Virus record (IMG/VR): IMGVR_UViG_3300015371_000007
Span: 30,547-94,546 of that record
Reading direction: 5' to 3' (one strand)
Length of the DNA: 64,000 bases
Source of the DNA: a virus
The translations under genes were made by a program, and so were the position numbers. Shown here piece after piece: positions 54,096 through 64,000 of the stretch. Under the pieces are notes generated by a model. It saw nothing but the letters and a program-made list of their open reading frames with translations, was not told the DNA's origin and searched no databases. Within the stretch, counting starts at the first letter, position 1, and every line of letters starts with the position of its first letter.

Positions 54096-54382
54096 CTCCT
54101 AGTACTGTGCGGAACCGACACAACTGTGGTCGCCGTGGGGGCGAATGCCCTTGGGCGCCGCGAATGTGAAAAACTACTGAAGACCTATTTCAACCCTAGT
54201 AAAGGTTGGACACCGACCTAGTATTGTAGTAGAACACGGGAGAGGCGCCAAACGCGGGATGTCGGTCCGCGTGTTGCGCGCTCCCTCCGGAGCCCCTTTG
54301 ATGTCCCCTCGCGCGATTGACTCGCGGCGCTCGGCTCGGGGGGAACTGTATCCCACACGACAGTTCGACGGGAAGGAGGCAC
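54096..54382. promoter_or_regulatory. divergent control region with sigma70-like promoter and CCTAGTA repeats
   Basis: AT-rich island between divergent gene blocks; TGGACA(54207)-17 nt-TAGAAC(54230); CCTAGTA at 54098, 54195, 54217. Confidence 0.55.
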
Positions 54383-54601
54383 ATGGCCGAGTCACGCATC
54401 GTTCACCATTGTGCGGTCACGACGGAGCCCGTCGACGAGGATCGCGTGCAGATCGCGGTGACGTGCGATCGCTGCGACCCCGTGGTGTTTGTGATCCCGA
54501 CGGTGCATGTGCGGACGCTCAAGCGCGCGCTCGCGGCGATCTACGCGCGAGAGCCGGGCGTGCAGCGGCTCGACTTGCGCGAGGAATCGTCGCCGCACTG
54601 A
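54383..54601 (+). CDS. hypothetical protein
   Basis: AAGGAGG RBS, ATG. Confidence 0.6.
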   Translation: MAESRIVHHCAVTTEPVDEDRVQIAVTCDRCDPVVFVIPTVHVRTLKRALAAIYAREPGVQRLDLREESSPH

Positions 54602-54602
54602 C

Positions 54603-55124
54603 ATGCGGCCCCGCAAGATTATCTCCGGCGGGCAAACCGGCGCGGACCTCGGCGGATTGGTCGGCGCGCGCGCGGTCGGCATCGCCACGGGCGGCACGGC
54701 GCCGAAGGGCTACCGCACCGATGCGGGACCGCAGCCGGAGGTGCTCCGCGCGTTCGGCCTGGTCGAGCACGCGTCGAGCGCGTATCCGCCGCGTACGCGC
54801 TGCAACGTGCTGGACAGTGACGCGACGGTGCTGTTCGGCCGGCTGGCGTCGCCGGGGTGCACGTTGACCATCGGGCTGTGTCGGCGACATCGGAAACCGT
54901 ACCTCGAGAACCCGTCGGCGTTCGAGCTGCGGCGGTACTGTTTGGTGAATCAGATTGCTGTGCTGAACGTGGCCGGCAACCGTGAGCGGACGAACCCTGG
55001 CATCGCACGGCGCGTTGCCACCATCATCGTCGAGGCGTTTCGACGTGACGGGGAACAGCTGCGAGGAGGCTTTCGCCAGCCTTCCGGAACCCAAGGCGAA
55101 AGAGATGAGGACAGGAATGGGTAA
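54603..55124 (+). CDS. SLOG-superfamily protein (putative molybdenum-carrier/YpsA-like)
   Basis: KIISGGQTGAD, TGGTAPKG, YPPRT..NV.DSDAT, LNVAGNRE. Confidence 0.85.
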   Translation: MRPRKIISGGQTGADLGGLVGARAVGIATGGTAPKGYRTDAGPQPEVLRAFGLVEHASSAYPPRTRCNVLDSDATVLFGRLASPGCTLTIGLCRRHRKPYLENPSAFELRRYCLVNQIAVLNVAGNRERTNPGIARRVATIIVEAFRRDGEQLRGGFRQPSGTQGERDEDRNG

Positions 55125-55392
55125 GAAGCACTCGGCCCACGCGCGAGAGACTGACGAGGACGAAGGTCAGCCTCTCCGCGCGTGGCACGTCATCGGGAAC
55201 AATCACGGCGACACGACCGTCGCTGCGCACGCCTGCTCGACCTACGAGGGCGTGCTCACCTTCGCACGACGCGACCCCACCAGCCACGACTTCATCGTCG
55301 TCCGCGCCTTTAACCGCCAAGCCTGGCAAGACTGCGAACTCGTCGACACGACCAGTTCGCCAGAGGTGACGAGTGGACATCACGATCAATGA
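55117..55392 (+). CDS. hypothetical protein
   Basis: GAGG upstream of ATG; VRAFN..AW motif. Confidence 0.55.
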   Translation: MGKKHSAHARETDEDEGQPLRAWHVIGNNHGDTTVAAHACSTYEGVLTFARRDPTSHDFIVVRAFNRQAWQDCELVDTTSSPEVTSGHHDQ

Positions 55393-55663
55393 AGCGCTGA
55401 CCTGGCTCAAGACGCTGCGCGAGCGGCACACCGAGCTGGTGCAGCTCCGGAACGAAAACAGTGCGACGACGCGCCGGCACTTCGGCGTGGGCGGCGACAA
55501 GGAGACCGTGCGCGAGCCGGTCTACGACGTCAAGGCGCTCGACAAGCTGGTGACGCGCGTCGCGCGCGAGGTCCAGCAGCTGGAGCAGGCGATTAAGGTG
55601 ACCAACGCGACGACGAAGGTCATCGGGTACACGAAAGACGACGCGGTGTTGGGCGAGCTGTAG
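55373..55663 (+). CDS. DIP1984/septicolysin-like coiled-coil protein
   Basis: ITINEAL..LK.L..R..EL N-terminus and L..AIK.TNA.T C-terminus; GAGGTG RBS. Confidence 0.65.
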   Translation: MDITINEALTWLKTLRERHTELVQLRNENSATTRRHFGVGGDKETVREPVYDVKALDKLVTRVAREVQQLEQAIKVTNATTKVIGYTKDDAVLGEL

Positions 55664-55894
55664 GGTTCGCCCCGTGACGGGGAGAGGCGTTTGGACGAAG
55701 GGGTGGTCTAGTGGCGTCGCGCACCGTGCCACGAAAAACCGAACGGCGCAACCAAGCAACGGGCTTGTAACCCGAACTGCCTCAGCCTCCAAAGCTGATT
55801 CTTTGTTGGTTGTTGGTCGTTGCTAGTTGGTCGTCCCTGTCGTTGATTGTTGATTGTTTGCCCGGCCACCGCCGGACGTCGCTCCCCGAACCCT
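55662..55894 (+). ncRNA. putative structured ncRNA with heptamer-repeat tract
   Basis: closing stems AGGGTTCG/CGAACCCT, GGGAG/CTCCC, GGCGTTTGG/CCGGACGTC, GGTGGTC/GGCCACC; internal hairpins; no credible ORF. Confidence 0.6.
55802..55859 (+). repeat. eight degenerate 7-nt repeats, consensus NTNGTTG
   Basis: TTTGTTG GTTGTTG GTCGTTG CTAGTTG GTCGTCC ct GTCGTTG ATTGTTG ATTGTTT. Confidence 0.85.
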
Positions 55895-55919
55895 CGGTAG
55901 GCAGACGAAGGGGGATAGC

Positions 55920-56384
55920 ATGACGATTGAAGACGTGTTGCAGTATTGTCGGGCCACGCAGAGCGAATGGCACTTGTACCACGGCACCGTGCGCTCGCAG
56001 CGGACGGGGTTGTGCGTGATTGAGGCGATGTACTTCGCCCGCACCGGCGTCCACCGGTGCTTCACCGCCGCTGGAGAGGAAATGGGCCTCAGCGAGTTCG
56101 ACTTGTCGATGGTGGTCAACGCCGCCGACAGCCCCTTCGGGTCGCGGCTGCGCGGGCCGCTGCTGGAGGCGTGCGGATTGCGGGAGCTGGAGCGCCTGCC
56201 CACCACCATCGTCCCGGCGCAGCCGATCTACGTCCAGTACGTCGTCCACGCGGTGCCGGTCCACATCGCCGACATGAAGGCGTTCATGGACAGCGCCTTC
56301 GAGACGTACATTCCGCCGGTGCCGGTGAAGACCGACCTCGCCCCGGCAGTGCGCGAGGAGGAACGGGAGCTGGTGCCCGCGTAA
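55920..56384 (+). CDS. hypothetical protein
   Basis: AAGGGGG RBS, ATG 55920. Confidence 0.6.
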   Translation: MTIEDVLQYCRATQSEWHLYHGTVRSQRTGLCVIEAMYFARTGVHRCFTAAGEEMGLSEFDLSMVVNAADSPFGSRLRGPLLEACGLRELERLPTTIVPAQPIYVQYVVHAVPVHIADMKAFMDSAFETYIPPVPVKTDLAPAVREEERELVPA

Positions 56385-56708
56385 ATGCTCACGCGACCGT
56401 CGAACAAACCGCGCGCGGAGATTGAGCACCTGGCGCATCGGACCATTCAGCTCCGGGGCGGGCCAGACCTCGCGCGCGTTTGGTACAAGTTCGACTGCGG
56501 CACGTGTGGGCACCGGGAGGTCGCCCCGGAGCCTAACGTGCTGCCCGTGGAGGGCGTCTGTACCGTGTGCGGCGCGAGGACGGCCATTCGCGGCGCCGGC
56601 TTCGCGCTGCAGGTCCGGCGGGACCGGTACGTCGATTGGGACAACCCCGCGACGACGCGGACGCTGGTGGTCCGCAAGGCCTACGCCTCCGATAAGGGCG
56701 AGGCATGA
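56385..56708 (+). CDS. zinc-ribbon hypothetical protein
   Basis: KFDCGTCG...CTVCG. Confidence 0.6.
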   Translation: MLTRPSNKPRAEIEHLAHRTIQLRGGPDLARVWYKFDCGTCGHREVAPEPNVLPVEGVCTVCGARTAIRGAGFALQVRRDRYVDWDNPATTRTLVVRKAYASDKGEA

Positions 56709-57103
56709 AGACCTGCTGCTTTCGGAGCTTCGCCAATCGGAACCTCCGCACGGCGGGCCGACCGAATCGGCTCGACGAGGGGCACCGCTGTGAGACCTGC
56801 GGCCAGCTCTATCGCTACACGCGCGCGCACCAGTGGGAGCCACACGACGGGCCGACCGTGGACACCGTCAACATCTACAGCGACGCCGACGGCGACACGA
56901 TCGACTTCGGGTGGGCCCGCGCGACGCGCGATCGCGACCGCCAGCTGCTCTTCGTGCAGTGCTGGGGCTGCGGCGCCATCCACGAGATGCCCGACACCGA
57001 ACAGTTCTCGCAGATGCACTTTCAACACGCCGCCGGCAACTGCTCGGAGCACCTGGCGCGCCGGAACAAAAAACGCGGAGTGATGCCGGGAGTCAGGCAT
57101 TGA
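56705..57103 (+). CDS. Cys-rich hypothetical protein
   Basis: CETCG, CWGCG; ATGA overlap. Confidence 0.55.
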   Translation: MKTCCFRSFANRNLRTAGRPNRLDEGHRCETCGQLYRYTRAHQWEPHDGPTVDTVNIYSDADGDTIDFGWARATRDRDRQLLFVQCWGCGAIHEMPDTEQFSQMHFQHAAGNCSEHLARRNKKRGVMPGVRH

Positions 57104-57135
57104 GAGGAGGCGGGATGGCCGCAGGCGGGATGGGC

Positions 57136-57522
57136 ATGAACATCGTGACGGTGGAGCGCGACGCGCTGCTGACCATCGTGAAGGGGAACCGCGAGAAGCA
57201 CCGGGAGATTTTTCTGGACGCCGTCAAGGGCTTCCGCACCAAGGTCATCGACATCTTGGAGCAACGACTCGAAGACGCGCGCGCCGGGCGCCGCATCAAC
57301 GTGCGCTTCAATCTGCCGACCCCGGTCGACCAGACGCGGGAATACGACCGCGTCATCAAGATGCTCGAAATGAGCATCGACCCGACCATCGAGCTGACGC
57401 AGTCGGAGTTCTCGCAGTACGTGATGGACGACTGGAGCTGGAAGCACCAGTTCACCGCGACCAACTCGGCCTACACCGTGGCTGCGATCCAAGACTCCCC
57501 GATCGACGACAGCGACGAGTAG
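57136..57522 (+). CDS. conserved-looking phage hypothetical protein
   Basis: NREKH..F..A..G...P....EYDRVIKMLEMS...IEL...EF.QYVMDDW.WK. Confidence 0.7.
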   Translation: MNIVTVERDALLTIVKGNREKHREIFLDAVKGFRTKVIDILEQRLEDARAGRRINVRFNLPTPVDQTREYDRVIKMLEMSIDPTIELTQSEFSQYVMDDWSWKHQFTATNSAYTVAAIQDSPIDDSDE

Positions 57523-57786
57523 ATGCCCGTCCTGATCAAGGCCGACGGGACCGAGCGCGACGTCTCCGGACGCCTGACGCTCGACGCGATGCAGGCCTTG
57601 GTCGGCGGGCATGTGCAGCACGTGACCGCGCCCGATGGCCGGCACCTCTTCGTCGACGAGGACGGGAAGCTGAAGCACAAGGCGGTGAACCACAAGGCGA
57701 CCGAGCTGTTCTATCCGGCGTACGACACCATCGTCGGCGACGTGCTGGTGCTGACGCCGGAGGAGTTCGCGGAGTACCGTTGTTGA
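57523..57786 (+). CDS. DUF3846-like protein
   Basis: MQALVGG.....L.VDEDGKL....N..AT...IVGDVLV. Confidence 0.75.
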   Translation: MPVLIKADGTERDVSGRLTLDAMQALVGGHVQHVTAPDGRHLFVDEDGKLKHKAVNHKATELFYPAYDTIVGDVLVLTPEEFAEYRC

Positions 57787-58019
57787 GGCTCTACCTTGAT
57801 CTCTGGACGCTCTACGACCGGCCGCGGGACTTTCCGCGACATATCGTGGCGCGCCGGCACCGGGTGGAGCGTGGCCGGCGGGATCCCGTGCCGGCGCCGG
57901 TCGCGTGCCTTTATGATTCGGTGGAAGAAGCGCGGTGGGATATGGAGCAGCTCGGCCTGGGCGGGCCGCTTCCACGCGACGCGGACGACGAACCGCAGAT
58001 CATCGAGACGTGGCTATGA
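57780..58019 (+). CDS. hypothetical protein
   Basis: WT.YD.P.DFP...VAR...R...D.PQIIETWL. Confidence 0.65.
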   Translation: MLRLYLDLWTLYDRPRDFPRHIVARRHRVERGRRDPVPAPVACLYDSVEEARWDMEQLGLGGPLPRDADDEPQIIETWL

Positions 58020-58450
58020 AGGACTACCACTACGCGCCCAAGGCGGACAAGGCGACGGCGCCGGCCGGCGACGCGCAGCGCGAGTGCGTAACGCACGGCG
58101 AATGCCGTCCGCCGCACCGGAGCACCAAGAACCGGCGCGACTGGTACAAAGGGCGCGAGGGGATCCCGCACACGTGGGAGTGGATGCCGTGGAAGCACCA
58201 AATCGAACTGGAGCAGCGCTACGGGGGGCCGCTCTGGAACCGCGTCACCGAGCACCGGACCTGCTTCGGGTGTGGCAAGGAGGACGACCGGACCCGGTCC
58301 TTCTGCCGGCAGTGCGGCGCGCCGTGGCCGAAGCTGACGTATGCGGGCCGCGGGCCGCTCTTCCGCTACGCCGGATGCCCGGCGTGTTTCGCGCCGTGGC
58401 GCATTGACCGGGACGGACGGTCCCAGCAGTGGCGGGCATCAGGCACATGA
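58016..58450 (+). CDS. Cys-rich hypothetical protein
   Basis: three CxxC pairs; ATGA overlap. Confidence 0.55.
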   Translation: MKDYHYAPKADKATAPAGDAQRECVTHGECRPPHRSTKNRRDWYKGREGIPHTWEWMPWKHQIELEQRYGGPLWNRVTEHRTCFGCGKEDDRTRSFCRQCGAPWPKLTYAGRGPLFRYAGCPACFAPWRIDRDGRSQQWRASGT

Positions 58451-58746
58451 GCGACGACGAGCACATCATCAAAGCCGGGCCGCTCAAGGGCAAGCGGGTC
58501 GAGATGTTCTCGAACGACCGGGTGATCCGGTTGCAGCCGGAGATCATGCGGATCCTCGACCTGCTCGGCCACCCCGACGCCTTGGTCACCGACCGGTCCT
58601 CGTTCGGGGATTTCTTTTCGTTCGCCTGGCGCGACGCTGACGCGCAGGCGGAGCTGGCGGCGATCGCGCAGCAACTCGCCGTCGGGCCGATCGCCTACGA
58701 GACGCTGCTGGTGGACGTCGCCGAGAAACTCAGGGGGGTGTCGTAA
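58447..58746 (+). CDS. hypothetical protein
   Basis: coupled ORF. Confidence 0.55.
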   Translation: MSDDEHIIKAGPLKGKRVEMFSNDRVIRLQPEIMRILDLLGHPDALVTDRSSFGDFFSFAWRDADAQAELAAIAQQLAVGPIAYETLLVDVAEKLRGVS

Positions 58747-59063
58747 TGGCCGATCCGTTCAAGCTGGTGTGCTCGGTGTGCGACTTCACGACGCAAGACC
58801 CCGCCGCGTTCGCGGAACATATGGTCGCCTATCCTGACCACCTCGGGACGTTTCCGATCGACGCCGAGAGCGGCGACCTCGCGGAGCTGGCGAAGGTCTT
58901 AGGCATCCTGCAGCGCGCGGCTGACGGCGGCGCGTTGCCCGAAGGCATGGAGATCAATCCCATCTCCGAGCAGGACATCCTCGACGACGACGAGTTGTCC
59001 GAGGAGGACAAGGCGACGATTCTTGCGCGGCTGCGCGAGTTCGACGAGGACGAGCCTGAGTAA
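58746..59063 (+). CDS. acidic hypothetical protein with C2H2-like start
   Basis: CSVC...H....H; TAATG coupling. Confidence 0.55.
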   Translation: MADPFKLVCSVCDFTTQDPAAFAEHMVAYPDHLGTFPIDAESGDLAELAKVLGILQRAADGGALPEGMEINPISEQDILDDDELSEEDKATILARLREFDEDEPE

Positions 59064-59282
59064 ATGGAGATGTGCGCCTGCGGCCAACCGTTGCACTACA
59101 GCTCGCCGAAGCTGTACGAGCAGGTCGAGCGGATGATTCAGATCGCCGGCGACCCGTTGGTGACGGTGACGACGCCGGACGGGCGCTGGCGCGTCCCGCG
59201 GCATTACATCGCCCTGCACGGCCTCAAGGCGAGCGAGCTACCGACGCTCGGGCCGGCGCTCGGCTTCGAGAAGGTGAAGTGA
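59064..59282 (+). CDS. hypothetical protein
   Basis: CACGQPLHY...VPRHYIALHG. Confidence 0.6.
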   Translation: MEMCACGQPLHYSSPKLYEQVERMIQIAGDPLVTVTTPDGRWRVPRHYIALHGLKASELPTLGPALGFEKVK

Positions 59283-59285
59283 CCA

Positions 59286-59582
59286 GTGCCGTTCCCGCCC
59301 CACTTGCAGAAGGCTCCTCCGCCCTGGCCCGACGGGACGGAGAAAGTCGTGTGGACCCTCATCGAGGCGGAGCAGCACCTGATCGCCGAGGTGTCGTTGA
59401 TCATGGGCGAACCTGTTGGTGTCGTGCGCGTGTTTCGGCTCCCGCACGGCGACGTCTCTGAGAAGACGCTGATCTACGAGAAGCCGATCGGCCTCATCGA
59501 GATTGCGATGTTCGCGGCCGACCGGGAGGATCTGATCACGACGTTCATGGAGGCGGTCGTGAAGGAAGCGCAGCCGCACTAA
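59286..59582 (+). CDS. hypothetical protein
   Basis: ORF in operon. Confidence 0.5.
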   Translation: MPFPPHLQKAPPPWPDGTEKVVWTLIEAEQHLIAEVSLIMGEPVGVVRVFRLPHGDVSEKTLIYEKPIGLIEIAMFAADREDLITTFMEAVVKEAQPH

Positions 59583-59776
59583 TGCCACGCGACTGGAAAT
59601 GCCCGCACTGCGGCCACTCCATCTACATCGGCGTCGAGTACGCCTACGACCACCCCGACCACTACGACGGCCTGAGCGAGTTGGTGTGCGCGCAGTGCGG
59701 CACGCGCTACGGGCGCTGGAGCGGGCGCAAACTGAAGGACGGGGAATCGGAGAAGCGGTGGGGCGGTGAACGCTGA
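59582..59776 (+). CDS. small zinc-ribbon protein
   Basis: CPHCG...YDG.SE..C..CG.R.GRWSG. Confidence 0.65.
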   Translation: MPRDWKCPHCGHSIYIGVEYAYDHPDHYDGLSELVCAQCGTRYGRWSGRKLKDGESEKRWGGER

Positions 59777-60108
59777 TGACCGACCACGAGATTCGCGAGC
59801 TGGCGCTGCAGGCGGTCGATGGCCGCGTCGTCGGGAGCTGGGCGGTGCCGCCAGATATGTGGCGGATGGTCTTCACGCCGTTGGCGTTTGCCGACCATGC
59901 GACGCTCCAGCGCTGGAAGGACGAGGGGGTCGCGCACGTCTACGGCATCTACGGCGTCGACGCGACGATGAGCCGCGCCGTCAACGGGTACCCGATGTTC
60001 GCGGAGATTCGCGTTCTCACCGCGCCGGAGTTTCTCAAGCTCCGGATCGCGTCCAACATGGCGCACAAGCAGCGCGCGCAGTTCCTCGCCGGGAGGAGAC
60101 TGCCGTGA
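59776..60108 (+). CDS. hypothetical protein
   Basis: MVF.P...R.VNGYPMF. Confidence 0.6.
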   Translation: MTDHEIRELALQAVDGRVVGSWAVPPDMWRMVFTPLAFADHATLQRWKDEGVAHVYGIYGVDATMSRAVNGYPMFAEIRVLTAPEFLKLRIASNMAHKQRAQFLAGRRLP

Positions 60109-60287
60109 ACGACAAGAGGAGGGGTATGGCCTGGACCGAGCATCCCAAACTCTATGAGGTTGCGAAAGAGGTGTGCTTCGAGCAGGGGATCCCGTGGACG
60201 GATCCGCGCACCGGCGTGACCCATTTCCCGCCGACGATGAAGCCGGCGCCCCCTCCCGACACGACGCGGGAGGGCACTGGTGCCTGA
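60105..60287 (+). CDS. hypothetical protein
   Basis: GGGAGGAG RBS, GTGA overlap. Confidence 0.45.
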   Translation: MNDKRRGMAWTEHPKLYEVAKEVCFEQGIPWTDPRTGVTHFPPTMKPAPPPDTTREGTGA

Positions 60288-60558
60288 CATCTCAGCGCAG
60301 CACACGTTCCTACTGAAACTGTCCGACCGCGAGTACCGGCTCGTGGCGAAGGCGATCGCGGCCTTTGCCGGCGTGCGCGCGGCGCGGCCCACGCCCGAGG
60401 AGGTCGCGGCCGCGAAGCTCCTGAATCTCGAGCTGCTGAAGCAGCGGAAAGCGATGTTGACCGAGCAGCTCCGCATGGCCGACGGCGCGCTCGGCCGCGC
60501 GGAGGAGGCCGGCCCGGTGCCGGCGGACGAAGAGCCCGTAGACGATGGGTCTCGGTAA
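60280..60558 (+). CDS. hypothetical protein
   Basis: GGAGG RBS. Confidence 0.55.
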   Translation: MPDISAQHTFLLKLSDREYRLVAKAIAAFAGVRAARPTPEEVAAAKLLNLELLKQRKAMLTEQLRMADGALGRAEEAGPVPADEEPVDDGSR

Positions 60559-60691
60559 AGCGCTCAAGCGGCGGCATCGGCGGCAGGCGAAGGCGGGGAA
60601 GCCCCGGCACCGCCTGACCGCTGGCCGCACCGGCAGCGTGCGCCACAAGCAGCGGCGCGGGATGCTGAGCGAGCGGAAACGCCATGATTAA
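60545..60691 (+). CDS. 48-aa very basic peptide
   Basis: read manually; fills the gap between coupled genes. Confidence 0.35.
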   Translation: MGLGKALKRRHRRQAKAGKPRHRLTAGRTGSVRHKQRRGMLSERKRHD

Positions 60692-61010
60692 CGATCCGGA
60701 GTCGCAGCGCGACTGGCTCGAACGCGCCGAGTTCCTGCTGGAGCTGCGCGCGTCGCGGGACCGCTGGAAGAAGCGCGCGCACTATCTGCTCGGCGTGGTG
60801 CGCCATTACCGGCTGCGCCTGGACACCGATCTCCGCGCGGCCGAATCGGTGCAAGACCGGTTGCGCGCGGCCCTGATGCAGTATCGCGAGCGCGACCACC
60901 GACAATGCACGATCTGGAAGACCGGTTTCGACAACCGCTGTTTGATGTGCCAAAAAGCCGACGCCGCCCTTGTCGGCATCGAGCGAAGGAGTCAACGTGA
61001 CCGCACCTGA
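60684..61010 (+). CDS. hypothetical coiled-coil protein
   Basis: ORF in operon. Confidence 0.5.
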   Translation: MINDPESQRDWLERAEFLLELRASRDRWKKRAHYLLGVVRHYRLRLDTDLRAAESVQDRLRAALMQYRERDHRQCTIWKTGFDNRCLMCQKADAALVGIERRSQRDRT

Positions 61011-61815
61011 CATGGCGGCGCAGCTCCGCGACGCGCTGCTGGAGCGAATGCGGAAGACCGCCAGCGGCGAGATGGTCGCGTTCGACAAGCGGCACGTCTA
61101 CGAGGTGCTCGCGGTGGCGATCGATCACGTCGCAGTGGTGCGGGCCGATGATGCGCTCCGAGCCGGGGAAGTCATCAACAGTCTCAAGGCGGAGGTCGCG
61201 ACACTCAAAGGCGCGATGGCCGCACAGGACGAACGCGAGCGCCTGGCCGGCGACCAATGCGGCATCCCGTGGCAGGAGCACCAGTGCGACTGGCCGGATG
61301 CCGTCGCGGAAGCGCTGATCGTCTCGCGGGAGCGCGAGTATCCCGGCTACAAACGGGAGAAGGCGTTACGCTGCGCAGCGGAAGCGCGGAATCAGGAACT
61401 GCGCGAGGGCTGGGTCAAGGACGAACGAAAGTTCGACAACGCGTTCAGCGACGCGTGCGCGGAACGCGACCGGCTGCGGGCGGCAGTGACTGCTATTCAC
61501 ACCGCCGTACGCGACGACGAGAAGGGCGAGTGTTGGACGATACGCCGCTATCTCGACGAGCGCGACATCTTCAACGACGACATTCAGGGCAGTGACCGCC
61601 TAGTGGAATTGGCGTGCGAGCACGTCCTCAAGGCCGCGACGCAGCCCACGCACAAACGAGATCAGCTGCGGGAGGCGCTGAAGGCGTGTGAGGCCGTCTT
61701 CGTGCACAGTGACAAGTTCCCCGAAGATCGCGAACCGATAGAACTGTGGGCTGATGAGCGCCGCCGCCTGTGGGATGCCGCGGTTGTTGCTGTTCGTGAG
61801 GCCTTACAGCAATGA
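60997..61815 (+). CDS. hypothetical coiled-coil protein
   Basis: AAGGAG RBS, GTG. Confidence 0.6.
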   Translation: MTAPDMAAQLRDALLERMRKTASGEMVAFDKRHVYEVLAVAIDHVAVVRADDALRAGEVINSLKAEVATLKGAMAAQDERERLAGDQCGIPWQEHQCDWPDAVAEALIVSREREYPGYKREKALRCAAEARNQELREGWVKDERKFDNAFSDACAERDRLRAAVTAIHTAVRDDEKGECWTIRRYLDERDIFNDDIQGSDRLVELACEHVLKAATQPTHKRDQLREALKACEAVFVHSDKFPEDREPIELWADERRRLWDAAVVAVREALQQ

Positions 61816-61931
61816 AAACGTGTTGCTCTTGCGGTGTCGTCGAGAGCGTCATGGCAGATCCGCGGTACTGCGCGATGTGCCGGACCTTCACGCACACGGT
61901 CTATGCAATGCGTTCAGAGAGACGCCCATGA
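61812..61931 (+). CDS. 39-aa Cys-rich peptide
   Basis: ATGA overlaps at both ends; CCSC...CAMC. Confidence 0.4.
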   Translation: MKTCCSCGVVESVMADPRYCAMCRTFTHTVYAMRSERRP

Positions 61932-62338
61932 GAACCCGCATCATTGAAGTCACGAACGGCGAGAACAATTGGGGCAAGTTCCTGATTGGCGATTTCACCG
62001 ACGAACGGTTCCGCCGGTCCGAGGTCGACAAGGAGTCGCGCCTGCCGCTGCTGCAGGCGATTGGCTGGGGCGACAACGCCTATCTCGTGGTCGACCTGCA
62101 GACGGGCGAGGGCACGATCTTTCGCTTGGGCGGGCTCGCGTCGGCCGACCTGAACAAACATAAGATATGGGTCTGCCCGATGTTCGAGCCGTTTCTCAAC
62201 TGGCTCTACGAGTACTACCTGGCCGCGGTGAAGGCCGGCGACCGCACGTGGTGGGAAGGCCTGCCGCTGCACGTCGACCTGCCCGACGCGCCGTTCTCCA
62301 TGCACGGCTACCGGCGAGAGGGCCGGACGACGTTGTGA
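61928..62338 (+). CDS. hypothetical protein
   Basis: NWGKF...DLQTGEG...DL.KH.IWVCPMFEPFL.WLY. Confidence 0.7.
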   Translation: MRTRIIEVTNGENNWGKFLIGDFTDERFRRSEVDKESRLPLLQAIGWGDNAYLVVDLQTGEGTIFRLGGLASADLNKHKIWVCPMFEPFLNWLYEYYLAAVKAGDRTWWEGLPLHVDLPDAPFSMHGYRREGRTTL

Positions 62339-62505
62339 GCAAGCGCGTCTGGCCGACGTCGCGGAAGGAGTCGCGGCTGCAGAACCGTTTCGCGCATCCG
62401 CACGACACGTGGACGAACCACGACCAGGCGGTCCGCATCGCAAAGCGGCGCTGGAAGCGCCACCGCAGCAAGCTCCTGCGCCGCCGGCCGATCCCGGAGG
62501 AGTAG
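62335..62505 (+). CDS. small basic protein
   Basis: GTGA overlap. Confidence 0.4.
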   Translation: MSKRVWPTSRKESRLQNRFAHPHDTWTNHDQAVRIAKRRWKRHRSKLLRRRPIPEE

Positions 62506-62508
62506 CCG

Positions 62509-62727
62509 ATGTGCCTCATCTGCGTGCTGGAGGACGAGGTGTTTCAGAAGGTCCCACGCAAAACCAAGAAGGCCACGAAGAAGTTCCTATTGCAGTCGCC
62601 GGTGCGCTGGAGCTGGCGCGAGCGCCGCCGCTTCCTGCGGGCGCACGGACGCCTTCGGCGCTCGCACGGTCTGCCGCCGATGCGCCGTCTCCCGGATGGC
62701 CGCGTGCCGGTCATGGAGGTGTGGTGA
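62509..62727 (+). CDS. small basic protein
   Basis: GGAGGAG RBS. Confidence 0.45.
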   Translation: MCLICVLEDEVFQKVPRKTKKATKKFLLQSPVRWSWRERRRFLRAHGRLRRSHGLPPMRRLPDGRVPVMEVW

Positions 62728-62988
62728 ATGCTGCCGCCCGAGGCGAAGACGGTCGCGCTGATCGCGTTCGCCCATCGGCGCGAGCTGCACCGGAACGCGA
62801 CGCCCATCGACAACAGCCAACTCCACGCCGGCTCGCCGATGTTCTTTACGTGCGAGGCGTGCTTCGGGCCGGTCATCGTCGCGGAGGGGTTTCTCACGAG
62901 ACCGCCGCTCTGCTACGACTGCCGCGACCTCGACGACCACGGCTGGCTGCTCGGCGTACCTAAAGCGGATGCGGGCGGGACGCGATGA
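62728..62988 (+). CDS. zinc-binding hypothetical protein
   Basis: IDNS.L.AGSPM.F.C..C...C..C. Confidence 0.6.
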   Translation: MLPPEAKTVALIAFAHRRELHRNATPIDNSQLHAGSPMFFTCEACFGPVIVAEGFLTRPPLCYDCRDLDDHGWLLGVPKADAGGTR

Positions 62989-63221
62989 CCTACTACCCCA
63001 CGCTCGAAGAGGACCTGGCCCGCGCGAAAGAGATTCTCGCAAGGGGCAAGGCGACCCTCGATACGCAGCTCCAAGAGCTGATCCCCAAGATCGACCCGGA
63101 GTCGCGCGAGGTGTTCCAGCAAACGCTCGGCGGCACGATCTACGGTTCCGACACCTACGCCGCCTATCGGCTGCTGGAGAGCTTCGTCGAGGAGATTGAG
63201 CGACTACGGAGGACGCCATGA
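62985..63221 (+). CDS. hypothetical protein
   Basis: ATGA coupling. Confidence 0.55.
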   Translation: MTYYPTLEEDLARAKEILARGKATLDTQLQELIPKIDPESREVFQQTLGGTIYGSDTYAAYRLLESFVEEIERLRRTP

Positions 63222-63475
63222 ATGACATCGCCGCGTTCATGCTCGCCGAAACCAAGCGCGCCTACGAAGGCCTCGACGACGAGTCGCTGGCGATCTTGAA
63301 GGCCCATTTCCCGAACGACCCCATCCGGCAGCGCGCCATCGACGAGGTGCTGCAGGCGCGCGGGCATCCGTCCATCGTCTGCCCGCAGTGCGGAATGCGG
63401 TCCTACAACCCCCACGACATCGCCGAGCGCTACTGCGGCGCGTGTCACGAGTTTCATAGTGAGATGAGGCGCTGA
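63218..63475 (+). CDS. zinc-finger hypothetical protein
   Basis: SI.CP.CG..SYNP.D...RYCG.CH.FH. Confidence 0.65.
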   Translation: MNDIAAFMLAETKRAYEGLDDESLAILKAHFPNDPIRQRAIDEVLQARGHPSIVCPQCGMRSYNPHDIAERYCGACHEFHSEMRR

Positions 63476-63521
63476 GATGTGGTGGCTGGTTGCAGGCGCT
63501 ACTCGATAGGCCAGAGGTTAC

Positions 63522-63794
63522 ATGATGGGCACGAATGGCGGCGACAAACCGCAGGGCGAGCCGGGACCGCCGGGACCGCAAGGCCCGCCAGGGGCTGAGG
63601 GTCCGACCGGACCGCAAGGGCCGGCTGGCCCGACGGGACCCGCCGGTCCGCAAGGTCCCGCGGGTCCCGAAGGCCCGACTGGCGCTGAAGGGCCGGCCGG
63701 TCCGACAGGACCCACGGGGGCGCCCGGTGCCCACGGAGCACCGGGAGAGACCGGCCCTGCCGGCCAGACCGGGGAGCGCGGGGCTGACGGTGCC
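63522..63794 (+). CDS. collagen-like (Gly-X-Y) protein, 5' part; true 3' end probably lost at the junction
   Basis: continuous Gly-X-Y triplets ~63555-63794; register is lost afterwards. Confidence 0.7.
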
Positions 63795-63983
63795 GTGGCG
63801 ACCGATCTCCGTCAGCGCGGTCGCGATCTCGGCCAGACCGAGGCCGTCGCCGCCGAGACGTTCGGGGACCGCCAGCGCCGGCACACCGCCGGCGACCAAC
63901 GCGTCCCAGCTGTTGCCGCGATCCAGCACCGACGTCACCACGTCGGCGACAGCCTGCTGCCCCTCCTCGGGACTGAAATCCAC
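63774..63983 (-). pseudogene. fadE28: 5' fragment (70 codons) of actinobacterial acyl-CoA dehydrogenase FadE28/ChsE1-like gene
   Basis: [20 protein letters not shown]...[23 protein letters not shown]....LTE.GRHG.V.PAL resembles the mycobacterial FadE28 N-terminus as recalled; AAGGAGG RBS upstream. Confidence 0.7.
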
Positions 63984-64000
63984 CCGAATCCTCCTTGATC

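What the first reader, a model, noticed from the sequence alone, without database searches (positions are those of the whole stretch)
55373..55894. DIP1984-like coiled-coil gene coupled to a closed ~233-nt RNA with eight 7-nt repeats: candidate protein-RNA system
Seen: starting inside the stop codon of 55373..55663, the two ends of a non-coding stretch pair in four nested helices. These are AGGGTTCG 55662-69/CGAACCCT 55887-94, GGGAG/CTCCC, GGCGTTTGG 55686-94/CCGGACGTC 55872-80 and GGTGGTC 55702-08/GGCCACC 55864-70. The non-Watson-Crick positions are G-U on the + strand, which points to a + strand RNA. Inside are small hairpins (GTGGC/GCCAC, CGGG/CCCG, TCAGC/GCTGA) and a U/G-rich tract of eight NTNGTTG heptamers (55802-55859), very unlike the surrounding GC-rich coding DNA. 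AGCAAC 55755-60 can pair with GTTGCT 55819-24. Inference: an oligomeric coiled-coil protein could bind one heptamer per subunit, as TRAP does with its repeats, forming an RNP, decoy, or type III toxin-antitoxin-like pair. I know no named system that fits.
Basis: partly seen in the sequence, partly recalled or inferred. Interest (0 to 1): 0.88.

Follow-up and report, generated by a model that had tools for sequence, protein, structure and literature searches.

The report
New phage RNA with partner protein
Right after a small helical-protein gene, this soil-bacterium phage encodes a folded RNA of about 213 bases that matches no known RNA family, has a tRNA-like end and a long G/U-rich seven-base repeat, and always travels with that protein gene in the relatives examined, so the two probably work together for a purpose still unknown.

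Summary
Window 55679-55891 (+) is one member of an undescribed structured RNA family.

- **Specificity:** a covariance model built only from distant chromosomal relatives hits the 64-kb window once, full length, at E 2e-10.
- **Structure:** across 60 members, 95% of pair cells are paired and 27 of 34 pairs show compensatory changes. G-U outnumbers A-C 215 to 26, so the RNA is on the + strand.
- **Rfam 15:** no family matches.
three of the four are conserved. The outermost one, which overlaps the stop codon, is specific to this window.
- **G/U tract:** the 7-nt periodicity is family-wide.
- **New here:** the closing helix reads GGGG...CCCC followed by N-CCA in most members (GAACCC in this window), like the neighbouring phage tRNA genes. 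In large phages the pair sits among tRNA, tmRNA and RNase P RNA genes.
- **Linkage:** the RNA and the ~98-aa DUF6847-like gene co-occur strictly (97 of 103 loci by nhmmer). Both are sporadic in one order of Acidobacteriota and were not found in a phylum-wide sample. About half of the chromosomal copies are followed by an XPF/ERCC4 nuclease; none of the six phage records has one.

Best reading: a mobile protein-RNA module (RNP). Its function is unknown. TRAP-like and type III TA-like readings are not supported as memberships. The scan had already met this RNA on other DNA (e1-3554105).

The parts
55373..55663 (+). Gene for a 96-aa helical-hairpin protein (GTG start, TAG stop). It is the constant partner gene of the RNA.
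   Evidence: ORF. 297 homologues found. Pfam DUF6847 scores 19.1 bits against a cut-off of 27, and NCBIfam DIP1984 scores 18.9 against 70; both match only the C-terminal half of the model. AF2 model: H5-28, beta-hairpin 32-48, H53-78, pLDDT 77. Homodimer model ipSAE 0.60 against a best control of 0.00.
55679..55891 (+). Conserved structured RNA of 213 nt, a member of an undescribed family.
   Evidence: It is the only hit of covariance model R1 (built from chromosomal relatives) in the 64-kb window: 44.5 bits, E 2e-10, model positions 1-203. Rfam is negative.
55679..55694 (+). P1 5' strand (GGGGAGAGGCGTTTGG), half of the closing, acceptor-like helix.
   Evidence: Pairs with 55872-55887. Covaries. 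G-U pairs form only on the + strand.
55872..55887 (+). P1 3' strand (CCGGACGTCGCTCCCC).
55702..55708 (+). P2 5' strand (GGTGGTC).
   Evidence: Pairs with 55864-55870. Six of seven pairs show compensatory changes across the family.
55864..55870 (+). P2 3' strand (GGCCACC).
55711..55732 (+). P3 hairpin (GTGGC...GCCAC), preceded by the conserved CTAG and followed by an A-rich GAAAAA segment.
   Evidence: Conserved in all clades. All six pairs covary.
55760..55774 (+). Hairpin CGGG/CCCG with the 7-nt loop CTTGTAA.
   Evidence: A hairpin with a 7-nt loop sits at this place in most members, but the loop sequence is not conserved.
55782..55798 (+). Variable hairpin TCAGC/GCTGA.
   Evidence: Present here but not conserved in relatives.
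55801..55859 (+). Single-stranded G/U-rich heptamer tract, ending in the most conserved motif GTTGATTGTT.
   Evidence: TRF period 7. Family-wide composition is G 41%, U 43%, A 6.5%, C 9.5%. Autocorrelation peaks at lags 7 and 14.
55888..55893 (+). 3' tail GAACCC. Most relatives have N(1-2)-CCA at this place.
   Evidence: UCCA in 41, GACCA in 6, GAACC in 5 of 60 members.
55662..55669 (+). It is specific to this window and not part of the family.
   Evidence: Complementary to 55887-94 (I8) but broken in L010-L015.
55920..56384 (+). Downstream 154-aa gene with its own GAAGGGGGA ribosome-binding site. It is not conserved next to the RNA.
   Evidence: no family. No relatives in viral contigs. Absent in L013, where the next gene follows the RNA directly.

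Best explanation
Window 55373-55893 is a two-part mobile module: a gene for a small dimer-forming helical-hairpin protein and, on the same transcript 15 nt after its stop codon, a ~213-nt structured RNA of a family not described before.

Shown:
- The RNA fold is under selection. It has a closing helix P1, helix P2, hairpin P3 and further hairpins.
- The RNA is read from the + strand.
- It carries 50-60 nt of unpaired G/U-rich sequence with a 7-nt period.
- Its ends look like those of a tRNA gene: a 5' GGGG paired to CCCC, followed by one or two bases and CCA in most members.
- It never occurs without the protein gene in the data examined.
- The pair moves among phages of one order of Acidobacteriota (labelled Vicinamibacterales in the MAG titles) and small chromosomal islets.

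Inferred:
- The RNA is cut out of the operon transcript the way the neighbouring phage tRNAs and tmRNA are, by RNase P at the 5' G and trimming to CCA at the 3' end, and accumulates as a stable RNA.
- Dimers of the upstream protein bind it, most plausibly on the G/U heptamers or the junction. The resulting RNP acts in trans.
- The RNP's business is phage-host conflict or takeover of host RNA or nucleic-acid enzymes. The reasons are that the module sits in phage early regions and tRNA islands, is sporadic and mobile, and in chromosomes is often followed by a rare bacterial XPF/ERCC4 nuclease that phage copies lack. A decoy or regulator role is one example. This last step is a guess.
For: Family and fold:
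- Conserved element downstream of the homologous gene.
- RNAalifold on 9 close members supports the helices.
- 52 chromosomal members: 89.7% of cells paired against 37-50% when the partners are slid; 18 compensatory pairs against 10.0 +/- 1.6 in shuffles.
- 60 members of all clades: 95.3% paired and 27 of 34 pairs compensatory, with 0 of 500 shuffles as high.
- G-U 215 against A-C 26.
- Model R1 gives a single full-length hit in the window.
- No Rfam family.

Linkage:
- 97 of 103 loci with a complete gene have the RNA within 700 nt downstream by nhmmer. By my reading two of the other six are miscalled stops and two are AT-rich.
- Loci found by a DNA pattern alone also carry the gene.
- Five of five genomes have one copy.
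- In the order sample, 7 genomes have the RNA and 9 the protein. The two extras are a contig end and a deletion copy.
- In the phylum sample of 150 genomes, neither was found.

tRNA-like ends and context:
- Ends tabulated.
- The phage tRNA and tmRNA genes beside it all encode NCCA.
- In L007 the order is tRNAs, tmRNA, RNase P RNA, gene, RNA, tRNA.

Protein: helical hairpin with a beta-hairpin tip. The homodimer model scores 0.60, best of 3 controls 0.00. That mark was reached by 20 of 30 proteins solved as pairs of one chain and 1 of 23 solved as single chains. The three runs agree in 100% of contacts and partner pLDDT is at least 86. This supports pairing but does not show it.

Nuclease: ERCC4+HhH2 lies directly after the RNA in at least 36 of 67 chromosomal loci. 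None is found in 6 phage records.
Against:
- The protein is near neutral in charge (own count from the sequence) and has no recognisable RNA-binding fold.
- Gene linkage could also come from shared transcription.
- This window's own 3' tail is GAACCC, not CCA.
- There is no T arm, so RNase P recognition is inferred from the helix plus NCCA only.
- The XPF nuclease also occurs without the module (6 of 9 genomes), and the module occurs without the nuclease. Any functional tie to it is optional.
- The alignment used was fitted to the model and leans towards its structure.
Confidence: 0.5

Rival explanations
1. RNA-only function. The RNA works by itself, for example as a self-assembling or scaffold RNA like other phage RNAs of tRNA islands. 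The upstream protein would then be only a co-transcribed neighbour or a folding or maturation helper.
For: - Same habitat as ROOL and GOLLD, which are phage or prophage RNAs near tRNA islands with no protein partner (PMC12286853).
- The protein has no known RNA-binding fold.
- An extra ORF can sit between the gene and the RNA (L017, L019, L005/6, L162).
Against: - Co-occurrence is strict across 35-95% protein identity and across very different neighbourhoods.
- In L007 it is the only recognised protein gene inside an RNA-gene array.
- The one copy in which the RNA is truncated has also lost part of the gene, in the same deletion.
Confidence: 0.2
2. Cis-acting transcript element. The fold stabilises or limits the upstream mRNA. 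By being cut at CCA it also creates the 5' end of the next mRNA, gating expression of whatever gene follows, often the XPF nuclease.
For: - The RNA starts 12-26 nt after the stop codon, with no promoter or terminator signal around it.
- In 20 of 56 members an ATG lies 1-5 nt after CCA, behind an anti-Shine-Dalgarno-like CCUCCA.
- The ERCC4 ORFs start there.
Against: - The downstream gene is not conserved, and here it has its own ribosome-binding site 27 nt away.
- A 200-nt multi-helix fold with conserved G/U heptamers is far more than a processing signal needs.
- In phages the next gene can be a tRNA.
Confidence: 0.15
3. Type III-like toxin-antitoxin or abortive-infection pair. The small protein is toxic and the repeat-bearing RNA neutralises it; phage copies would serve as antidotes.
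For: - A sporadic, single-copy, mobile two-part module found in chromosomes and in phages.
- A repeat-containing RNA sits next to a small protein gene.
Against: - The RNA lies downstream of the gene, not upstream behind a terminator.
- The repeat unit is 7 nt, not ~36 nt.
- The protein has no match to PADLOC-independent Pfam toxin families (ToxN, AbiEii and the like) and has a helical-hairpin fold.
- Phage copies keep the protein gene as well, which a pure antidote would not need.
Confidence: 0.1
4. DNA-level element, such as a replication origin with GT-rich iterons, a Chi-like tract or an attachment site. The apparent RNA fold would then be incidental.
For: - A GT-rich period-7 repeat unlike the surrounding 68% G+C DNA.
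- A structure-specific nuclease is often adjacent.
Against: - Compensatory changes keep long-range helices, and wobble pairs are 8-fold more frequent on the + strand than their A-C equivalents.
- There is no duplicated 3' end within the loci.
- Orientation relative to the gene is always the same.
Confidence: 0.04

Closest known systems
ROOL and GOLLD RNAs (large ornate phage/prophage RNAs; PMC12286853)
   Same: Encoded by phages and prophages, often in or beside tRNA islands. The folds are strongly covarying and the function is unknown.
   Different: Those RNAs are 500-800+ nt, form RNA-only cages and have no partner protein. This RNA is ~200 nt, has a tRNA-like end and a G/U heptamer tract, and always has a partner gene. 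Their Rfam models do not match it.
tRNA and tmRNA-SmpB
   Same: A terminal helix starting with GGGG and ending CCCC-N-CCA. The gene is embedded among tRNA, tmRNA and RNase P RNA genes. A dedicated small protein partner is encoded by the same genomes.
   Different: There is no T arm, no D-loop equivalent, no G3-U70 and no tag reading frame. ARAGORN and the Rfam tRNA/tmRNA models are negative. The closing helix is 15-16 bp, not 7.
Type III toxin-antitoxin systems (ToxIN, CptIN, TenpIN; own knowledge)
   Same: A protein plus a repeat-bearing RNA form a mobile pair that phages can carry.
   Different: Gene order, repeat length (7 nt against ~36 nt), the absence of an endoribonuclease-like toxin fold, and an RNA that is a complex fold rather than a tandem array.
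TRAP with its (G/U)AG repeats, and HutP with UAG repeats (own knowledge)
   Same: Short single-stranded repeats at regular spacing that could each seat one protein subunit.
   Different: TRAP and HutP are beta-rich ring oligomers that act on leader RNAs to control termination. Here the protein is a predicted helical-hairpin dimer, and the repeats lie inside a closed stable RNA downstream of the gene.
Rop (Rom) with ColE1 RNA I/RNA II (own knowledge)
   Same: A very small helical-hairpin dimer whose only known job is to bind structured RNA, encoded on a mobile replicon.
   Different: There is no sequence or significant fold match. Rop has no beta-hairpin tip. No antisense RNA pair is evident here.
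Phage T4 stable RNAs species 1 and 2 (rnaC, rnaD; own knowledge, not verified in the papers searched)
   Same: Small stable phage RNAs of unknown function encoded in the tRNA gene cluster and matured with the tRNAs.
   Different: No sequence relation was tested. The T4 RNAs have no known partner gene and no G/U heptamers.

Membership tests
Any Rfam 15 family (including tRNA, tmRNA, 6S, SRP, Y RNA/YrlA, phage pRNA, ROOL, GOLLD, Acido-1) | A match to the family covariance model at or near its gathering score. | tested here: not met
   No match at gathering score in the window or in 10 related loci over the element. At E<=10 only chance hits appear (CRISPR-DR37 at 16.5 bits, snoRNAs).
tRNA / tmRNA | Acceptor helix followed by a discriminator base and CCA. 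| tested here: met
   N(1-2)-CCA follows the closing helix in about 50 of 60 members. This window has GAACCC.
tRNA / tmRNA | A T arm with its conserved loop, a cloverleaf or tRNA-like domain, and for tmRNA a tag reading frame and G3-U70. | tested here: not met
   ARAGORN finds nothing in the window. P1 is a continuous 15-16-bp helix directly followed by P2. Position 3 is G-C.
Type III toxin-antitoxin (ToxIN-like) | A tandem array of ~34-36-nt antitoxin repeats upstream of the toxin gene, separated from it by a terminator. | tested here: not met
   The RNA is downstream of the gene. The repeats have period 7. No terminator lies between them.
Type III toxin-antitoxin (ToxIN-like) | The toxin is a sequence-specific endoribonuclease (ToxN/AbiQ fold). 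| tested here: not met
   Pfam gives only sub-threshold DUF6847. The AF2 fold is a helical hairpin with a beta-hairpin tip.
TRAP-type repeat-binding attenuation protein | A ring of 11 or so beta-sandwich subunits, each binding a (G/U)AG triplet spaced by 2-3 nt in a leader RNA. | tested here: not met
   The protein is alpha-helical with a dimer model. The repeat is GUUGNUN with period 7. The RNA is not a leader.
DIP1984 / DUF6847 protein family | A score above the curated cut-off over the whole ~141-149-residue model. | tested here: inconclusive
   19.1 bits against 27 (Pfam) and 18.9 against 70 (NCBIfam), covering only model positions 65-139 and 73-147. Some homologues carry a precomputed PF20935 mark, and Atlas neighbours carry it at 11-20%. 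It is a distant, half-length relative at best.
Proposed new family (this RNA plus its partner gene) | P1-P2-P3 architecture, G/U heptamer tract and the partner gene directly upstream on the same strand. | tested here: met
   Window hit of model R1 is full length. Helices shown, the tract, the gene.
RNase P substrate (tRNA-like maturation) | Cleavage at the 5' G of the closing helix and a mature 3' CCA end. | not testable with these tools
   Only sequence features are available: U at -1 in 35 of 60 members, and a helix plus NCCA.

The most novel reading that the evidence does not exclude
The protein-RNA pair is the core of a new kind of conflict module.

- In bacterial chromosomes the RNP would hold in check, or gate the expression of, the XPF/ERCC4 nuclease encoded 1-5 nt after the RNA's CCA end. 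That would make it an RNA-containing counterpart of a retron-type or toxin-antitoxin defence.
- Phages would carry nuclease-less copies of the same RNP as an antidote or decoy.
- The tRNA-like end would let the RNA be matured, and perhaps recognised, by the host's tRNA machinery.
Probability: 0.12. Interest if true: 0.92.

Novelty: categorically new. Interest (0 to 1): 0.8.

Why it matters
Structured RNAs with strong covariation and no known function are rare finds. Those carried by phages beside tRNA genes (ROOL, GOLLD, the T4 stable RNAs) have resisted explanation for years, partly because no partner is known.

This one differs in several useful ways:
- It comes with an invariant, very small partner gene.
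- It has a tRNA-like end that predicts how it is matured.
- It has a long regular G/U repeat that offers an obvious handle for binding studies.
- It occurs in three natural contexts: alone, followed by an XPF nuclease, and inside phage tRNA, tmRNA and RNase P arrays.

That makes an unknown phage RNP directly testable. It would also add a protein-RNA pair to the tools of phage-host conflict in Acidobacteriota, a dominant but barely studied soil phylum.

Tried and rejected
- **Single-sequence folding.** The z-scores (-1.26 and -1.62) do not distinguish the element from shuffles, so I did not use them as evidence.
- **Known RNA families.** Rfam at gathering score and at E<=10, and ARAGORN, found nothing.
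- **Anticodon-loop mimic.** The loop CUUGUAA in this clade and CUGCAAA in L020 suggested tRNA anticodon mimicry. I rejected this because the loop sequence is not conserved in the chromosomal group (CCUGGCA, CUGGAAA, UUGCAAC).
- **Antisense pairing to the gene's own start region.** AUCACGAUCAAU looked complementary to GUUGAUUGUUGAU. In 59 loci the start region ranks no better than random windows of the same locus.
- **A complementary target elsewhere in the window.** None was found.
- **Attachment-site reading.** No second copy of the RNA's last 18 nt lies within the loci (flanks are only 2.5 kb).
- **Pseudoknot between the P3 loop and the following segment.** It is plausible in two subgroups, with one apparent compensatory change in L075, but the register differs between subgroups and it is absent in others. 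Left unresolved.
- **A local hairpin CCGGC/GCCGG at 55862-75** (RNAfold's choice). It competes with P2. Covariation favours P2.
- **Protein fold searches** (PDB sequences, Foldseek PDB and viral). Only insignificant coiled-coil look-alikes came up, such as the SerRS arm, prefoldin and LSD1.
- **GenBank phages.** None encodes the protein (three queries).
- **Group-B RNA in IMG/VR.** A DNA pattern for the group-B RNA found nothing.
Full report
**Setting.** The window is the right-hand 64 kb of a 94.5-kb IMG/VR virus record (93% complete, about 68% G+C). The finding lies in a rightward array of small genes that starts at a divergent point near 54.2 kb. Most of these genes have no known family. 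A cpYpsA/SLOG gene lies two genes upstream. The 96-aa ORF 55373-55663 is followed by 256 non-coding bases and then by a 154-aa ORF with its own ribosome-binding site.

**The observation.**
- Taken alone the sequence is not convincing. The minimum free energy is only 1.3 to 1.6 standard deviations better than shuffles on either strand.
- No Rfam 15 family matches, at gathering score or at E<=10. ARAGORN finds no tRNA or tmRNA.
- The element is single-copy in the phage.

**Relatives.**
They are nearly all 95-100 residues long and have 27 invariant positions in a 37-sequence alignment.
- The genomic loci are almost all MAGs labelled Acidobacteriota or Vicinamibacterales.
- The 13 loci whose protein is 72-95% identical have an obviously homologous element downstream.
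- A profile built from these finds weaker matches directly after the gene in most of the 63-66% identical chromosomal loci and in large viral contigs.
- A simple search for a long-range helix beginning with GGG shows the same design almost everywhere: about 195-215 nt, with a 5' GGGG paired to a 3' CCCC.

**Structure.**
- *52 chromosomal members*, my four-helix structure of P1 15 bp, P2 7 bp, P3 6 bp and P6 10 bp:
  - 89.7% of cells are paired, against 37-50% when the partners are slid.
  - 18 pairs show compensatory change, against 10.0 +/- 1.6 in shuffles (0 of 500 as high).
- *Model R1*, built from 27 chromosomal members: it hits the window once, full length, at 55679-55891 (44.5 bits, E 2e-10). 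It also hits every phage-clade member, so these are one family.
- *60 members aligned to the model*:
  - 95.3% of cells pair.
  - 27 of 34 pairs have compensatory changes (shuffles 14.9 +/- 1.7; slid versions at most 15).
  - This alignment leans towards the model, so I give more weight to and to the cross-clade changes seen by eye in P2 (AACGGYC/GRCUGUU against RGUGGYC/GGCCACY).
- *Strand*: G-U pairs outnumber A-C 215 to 26, which fixes the RNA on the gene's strand.
- *Outermost helix* (AGGGTTCG/CGAACCCT, overlapping the stop codon): it is already broken in the 94% identical relatives, so it is not part of the family.
- *P6*: in chromosomal members it is a GNRA-capped hairpin with a GGA/GAG internal loop that some members replace with Watson-Crick pairs. 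The window lacks P6.

**The G/U tract.** Across the family the unpaired tract has a median length of 53 nt and is 41% G, 43% U, 6.5% A and 9.5% C, in genomes of 60-70% G+C. Self-similarity peaks at lags 7 (0.51) and 14 (0.48), against 0.21-0.25 at lags 2, 5, 9 and 12. The heptamer periodicity is therefore a family property. The most conserved stretch is the last one, GUUG(A/G)UUGUU..ACC, just before the 3' strand of P2.

**Ends.**
- In 41 of 60 members the closing helix is followed by U-CCA. Six have GA-CCA and others have GU-CCA or G-CCA. The window's small clade has GAACC(C).
- The base before the first G is U in most members.
- The phage tRNA and tmRNA genes in the same loci all encode N-CCA.
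- In viral locus L007 the order is six tRNAs, a tmRNA, an RNase P RNA, the protein gene, this RNA and another tRNA. L004, L005/6 and L162 also have tRNAs close by.
- The start of the RNA is 12-26 nt from the stop codon, and no promoter or terminator signal lies around it.
- I infer, but cannot show, that the RNA is excised from a polycistronic transcript like a tRNA.

**Linkage and distribution.**
- Of 103 loci with a complete gene and at least 260 nt of downstream DNA, 97 have the RNA within 700 nt by nhmmer. By my reading, two of the other six are miscalled stops that do carry the RNA, two are AT-rich distant members, and two were not resolved.
- Two loci found by a DNA pattern, without using the protein, also have the gene upstream.
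- Five MAGs have exactly one copy each.
- In 151 genomes of the order, the RNA is in 7 and the protein in 9. Six pairs are adjacent and one is split over contig ends. Of the two protein-only cases, one is a contig end. The other (G044, the same contig as L113) is a deletion that fuses codon ~81 of the gene to the last ~50 nt of the RNA.
- In 150 other genomes of the phylum, neither was found.
- The flanks of chromosomal copies are unrelated, ordinary genes: an outer-membrane protein, a PQQ dehydrogenase, a dienelactone hydrolase, an SNF2 helicase and, once, an integrase. The module therefore sits in small variable islets, not in a housekeeping locus.
- No GenBank phage encodes the protein.

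**The nuclease neighbour.**
- In at least 36 of 67 chromosomal loci the next gene is a ~228-aa ERCC4 + (HhH)2 nuclease. Its ATG often lies 1-5 nt after CCA.
- ERCC4 is absent from the ten bacterial control genomes and from all six phage records tested.
- In the order sample it occurs strongly in nine genomes, three of them beside the module and six without it.
- The association is far above chance but optional in both directions.
- An earlier report of this scan (e1-3554105) described the same arrangement on other DNA. My data agree with it.

**The protein.**
- AlphaFold2 with the family alignment gives two long antiparallel helices joined by a beta-hairpin that carries the invariant R35, G38, D42, P49 and Y51 (pLDDT 77).
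- Searches of PDB sequences and folds and of viral models return nothing significant.
- The DUF6847/DIP1984 match is sub-threshold and covers only the C-terminal half of the model.
- A two-copy model scores 0.60, best of 3 controls 0.00. That mark was reached by 20 of 30 proteins solved as pairs of one chain and 1 of 23 solved as single chains. The three runs agree in 100% of contacts and partner pLDDT is at least 86. The interface uses residues 1-9 and 76-96. This supports a dimer but does not show one.

**Interpretation.**
- The best-supported reading is a dedicated protein-RNA module. Its RNA is a stable, tRNA-like-ended molecule, and its function lies in phage-host dealings.
- Binding of the protein to the heptamers is a reasonable guess but untested.
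- I tested and rejected several specific ideas: an anticodon mimic, antisense control of the gene's own start, a target elsewhere in the window, and an attachment site.
- TRAP-like and type III toxin-antitoxin memberships fail on their defining features.
- The nearest analogues in habitat are ROOL and GOLLD, but they are unrelated in size, fold and partners.
- I found no paper describing this RNA or DUF6847 function.

**Limits.** There are no expression data. The family alignment comes from about 130 loci, not all ~300. E-values from the shortened model calibration are rough. The MAG taxonomy is as labelled by the depositors.

Noticed in passing
L007:1343-2462 (viral contig IMGVR_UViG_3300038424_000709): A 114-kb viral contig encodes a full-length class A RNase P RNA (203 bits) and a tmRNA (tag AKPLAMYAMA) inside a tRNA array, directly upstream of the protein-RNA pair. 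A virus-encoded RNase P RNA seemed unusual to me.
   Followed up: partly
L093:3010-3699, L045:1254-1949, L080:1942-2625, L063:3067-3717: Bacterial short XPF/ERCC4 + (HhH)2 nucleases of ~228 aa. ERCC4 is otherwise seen only in the archaeal control genomes. The start codon lies 1-5 nt after the RNA's CCA, with no Shine-Dalgarno sequence. This suggests a leaderless or processing-dependent start.
   Followed up: partly
L211:440-540 (G044:C171, same contig as L113): A natural deletion joins codon ~81 of the partner gene to the last ~50 nt of the RNA, leaving the downstream nuclease gene in place. It is a decayed copy of the module.
   Followed up: yes
window 54507-55124: A cpYpsA (circularly permuted SLOG) gene lies two genes upstream. 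The order cpYpsA, two small ORFs, partner gene, RNA is kept in the window's clade (L010-L017).
   Followed up: partly
L004:409-482: ARAGORN calls a tRNA with anticodon TCA (reported as tRNA-SeC) in a 179-kb viral contig. Unlike its neighbours it has no encoded CCA. It may be an opal-suppressor-type tRNA.
   Followed up: no
L007:1215-1308: A 94-nt tRNA-Ile (anticodon TAT) call, about 20 nt longer than a normal tRNA. It may hold an intron or a long insertion.
   Followed up: no
window 63560-63718: Nested tandem repeats of period 9, 36, 54 and 72 rich in GGN/CCN. They look like a collagen-like Gly-X-Y coding repeat near the end of the window.
   Followed up: no
window 54100-64000: A divergent switch near 54.2 kb is followed by more than 25 same-strand small ORFs with almost no family matches (one DUF3846 at 57523-57786). 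This has the look of a phage early or host-takeover region.
   Followed up: partly
L008:1160-1360, L009:2779-3000, L119:2788-3040: Distant, AT-rich homologues of the partner gene are also followed by non-coding stretches with a closing helix. L119 and L009 have U/G-rich repeats. Model R1 does not detect them, so they may be divergent versions of the RNA.
   Followed up: partly
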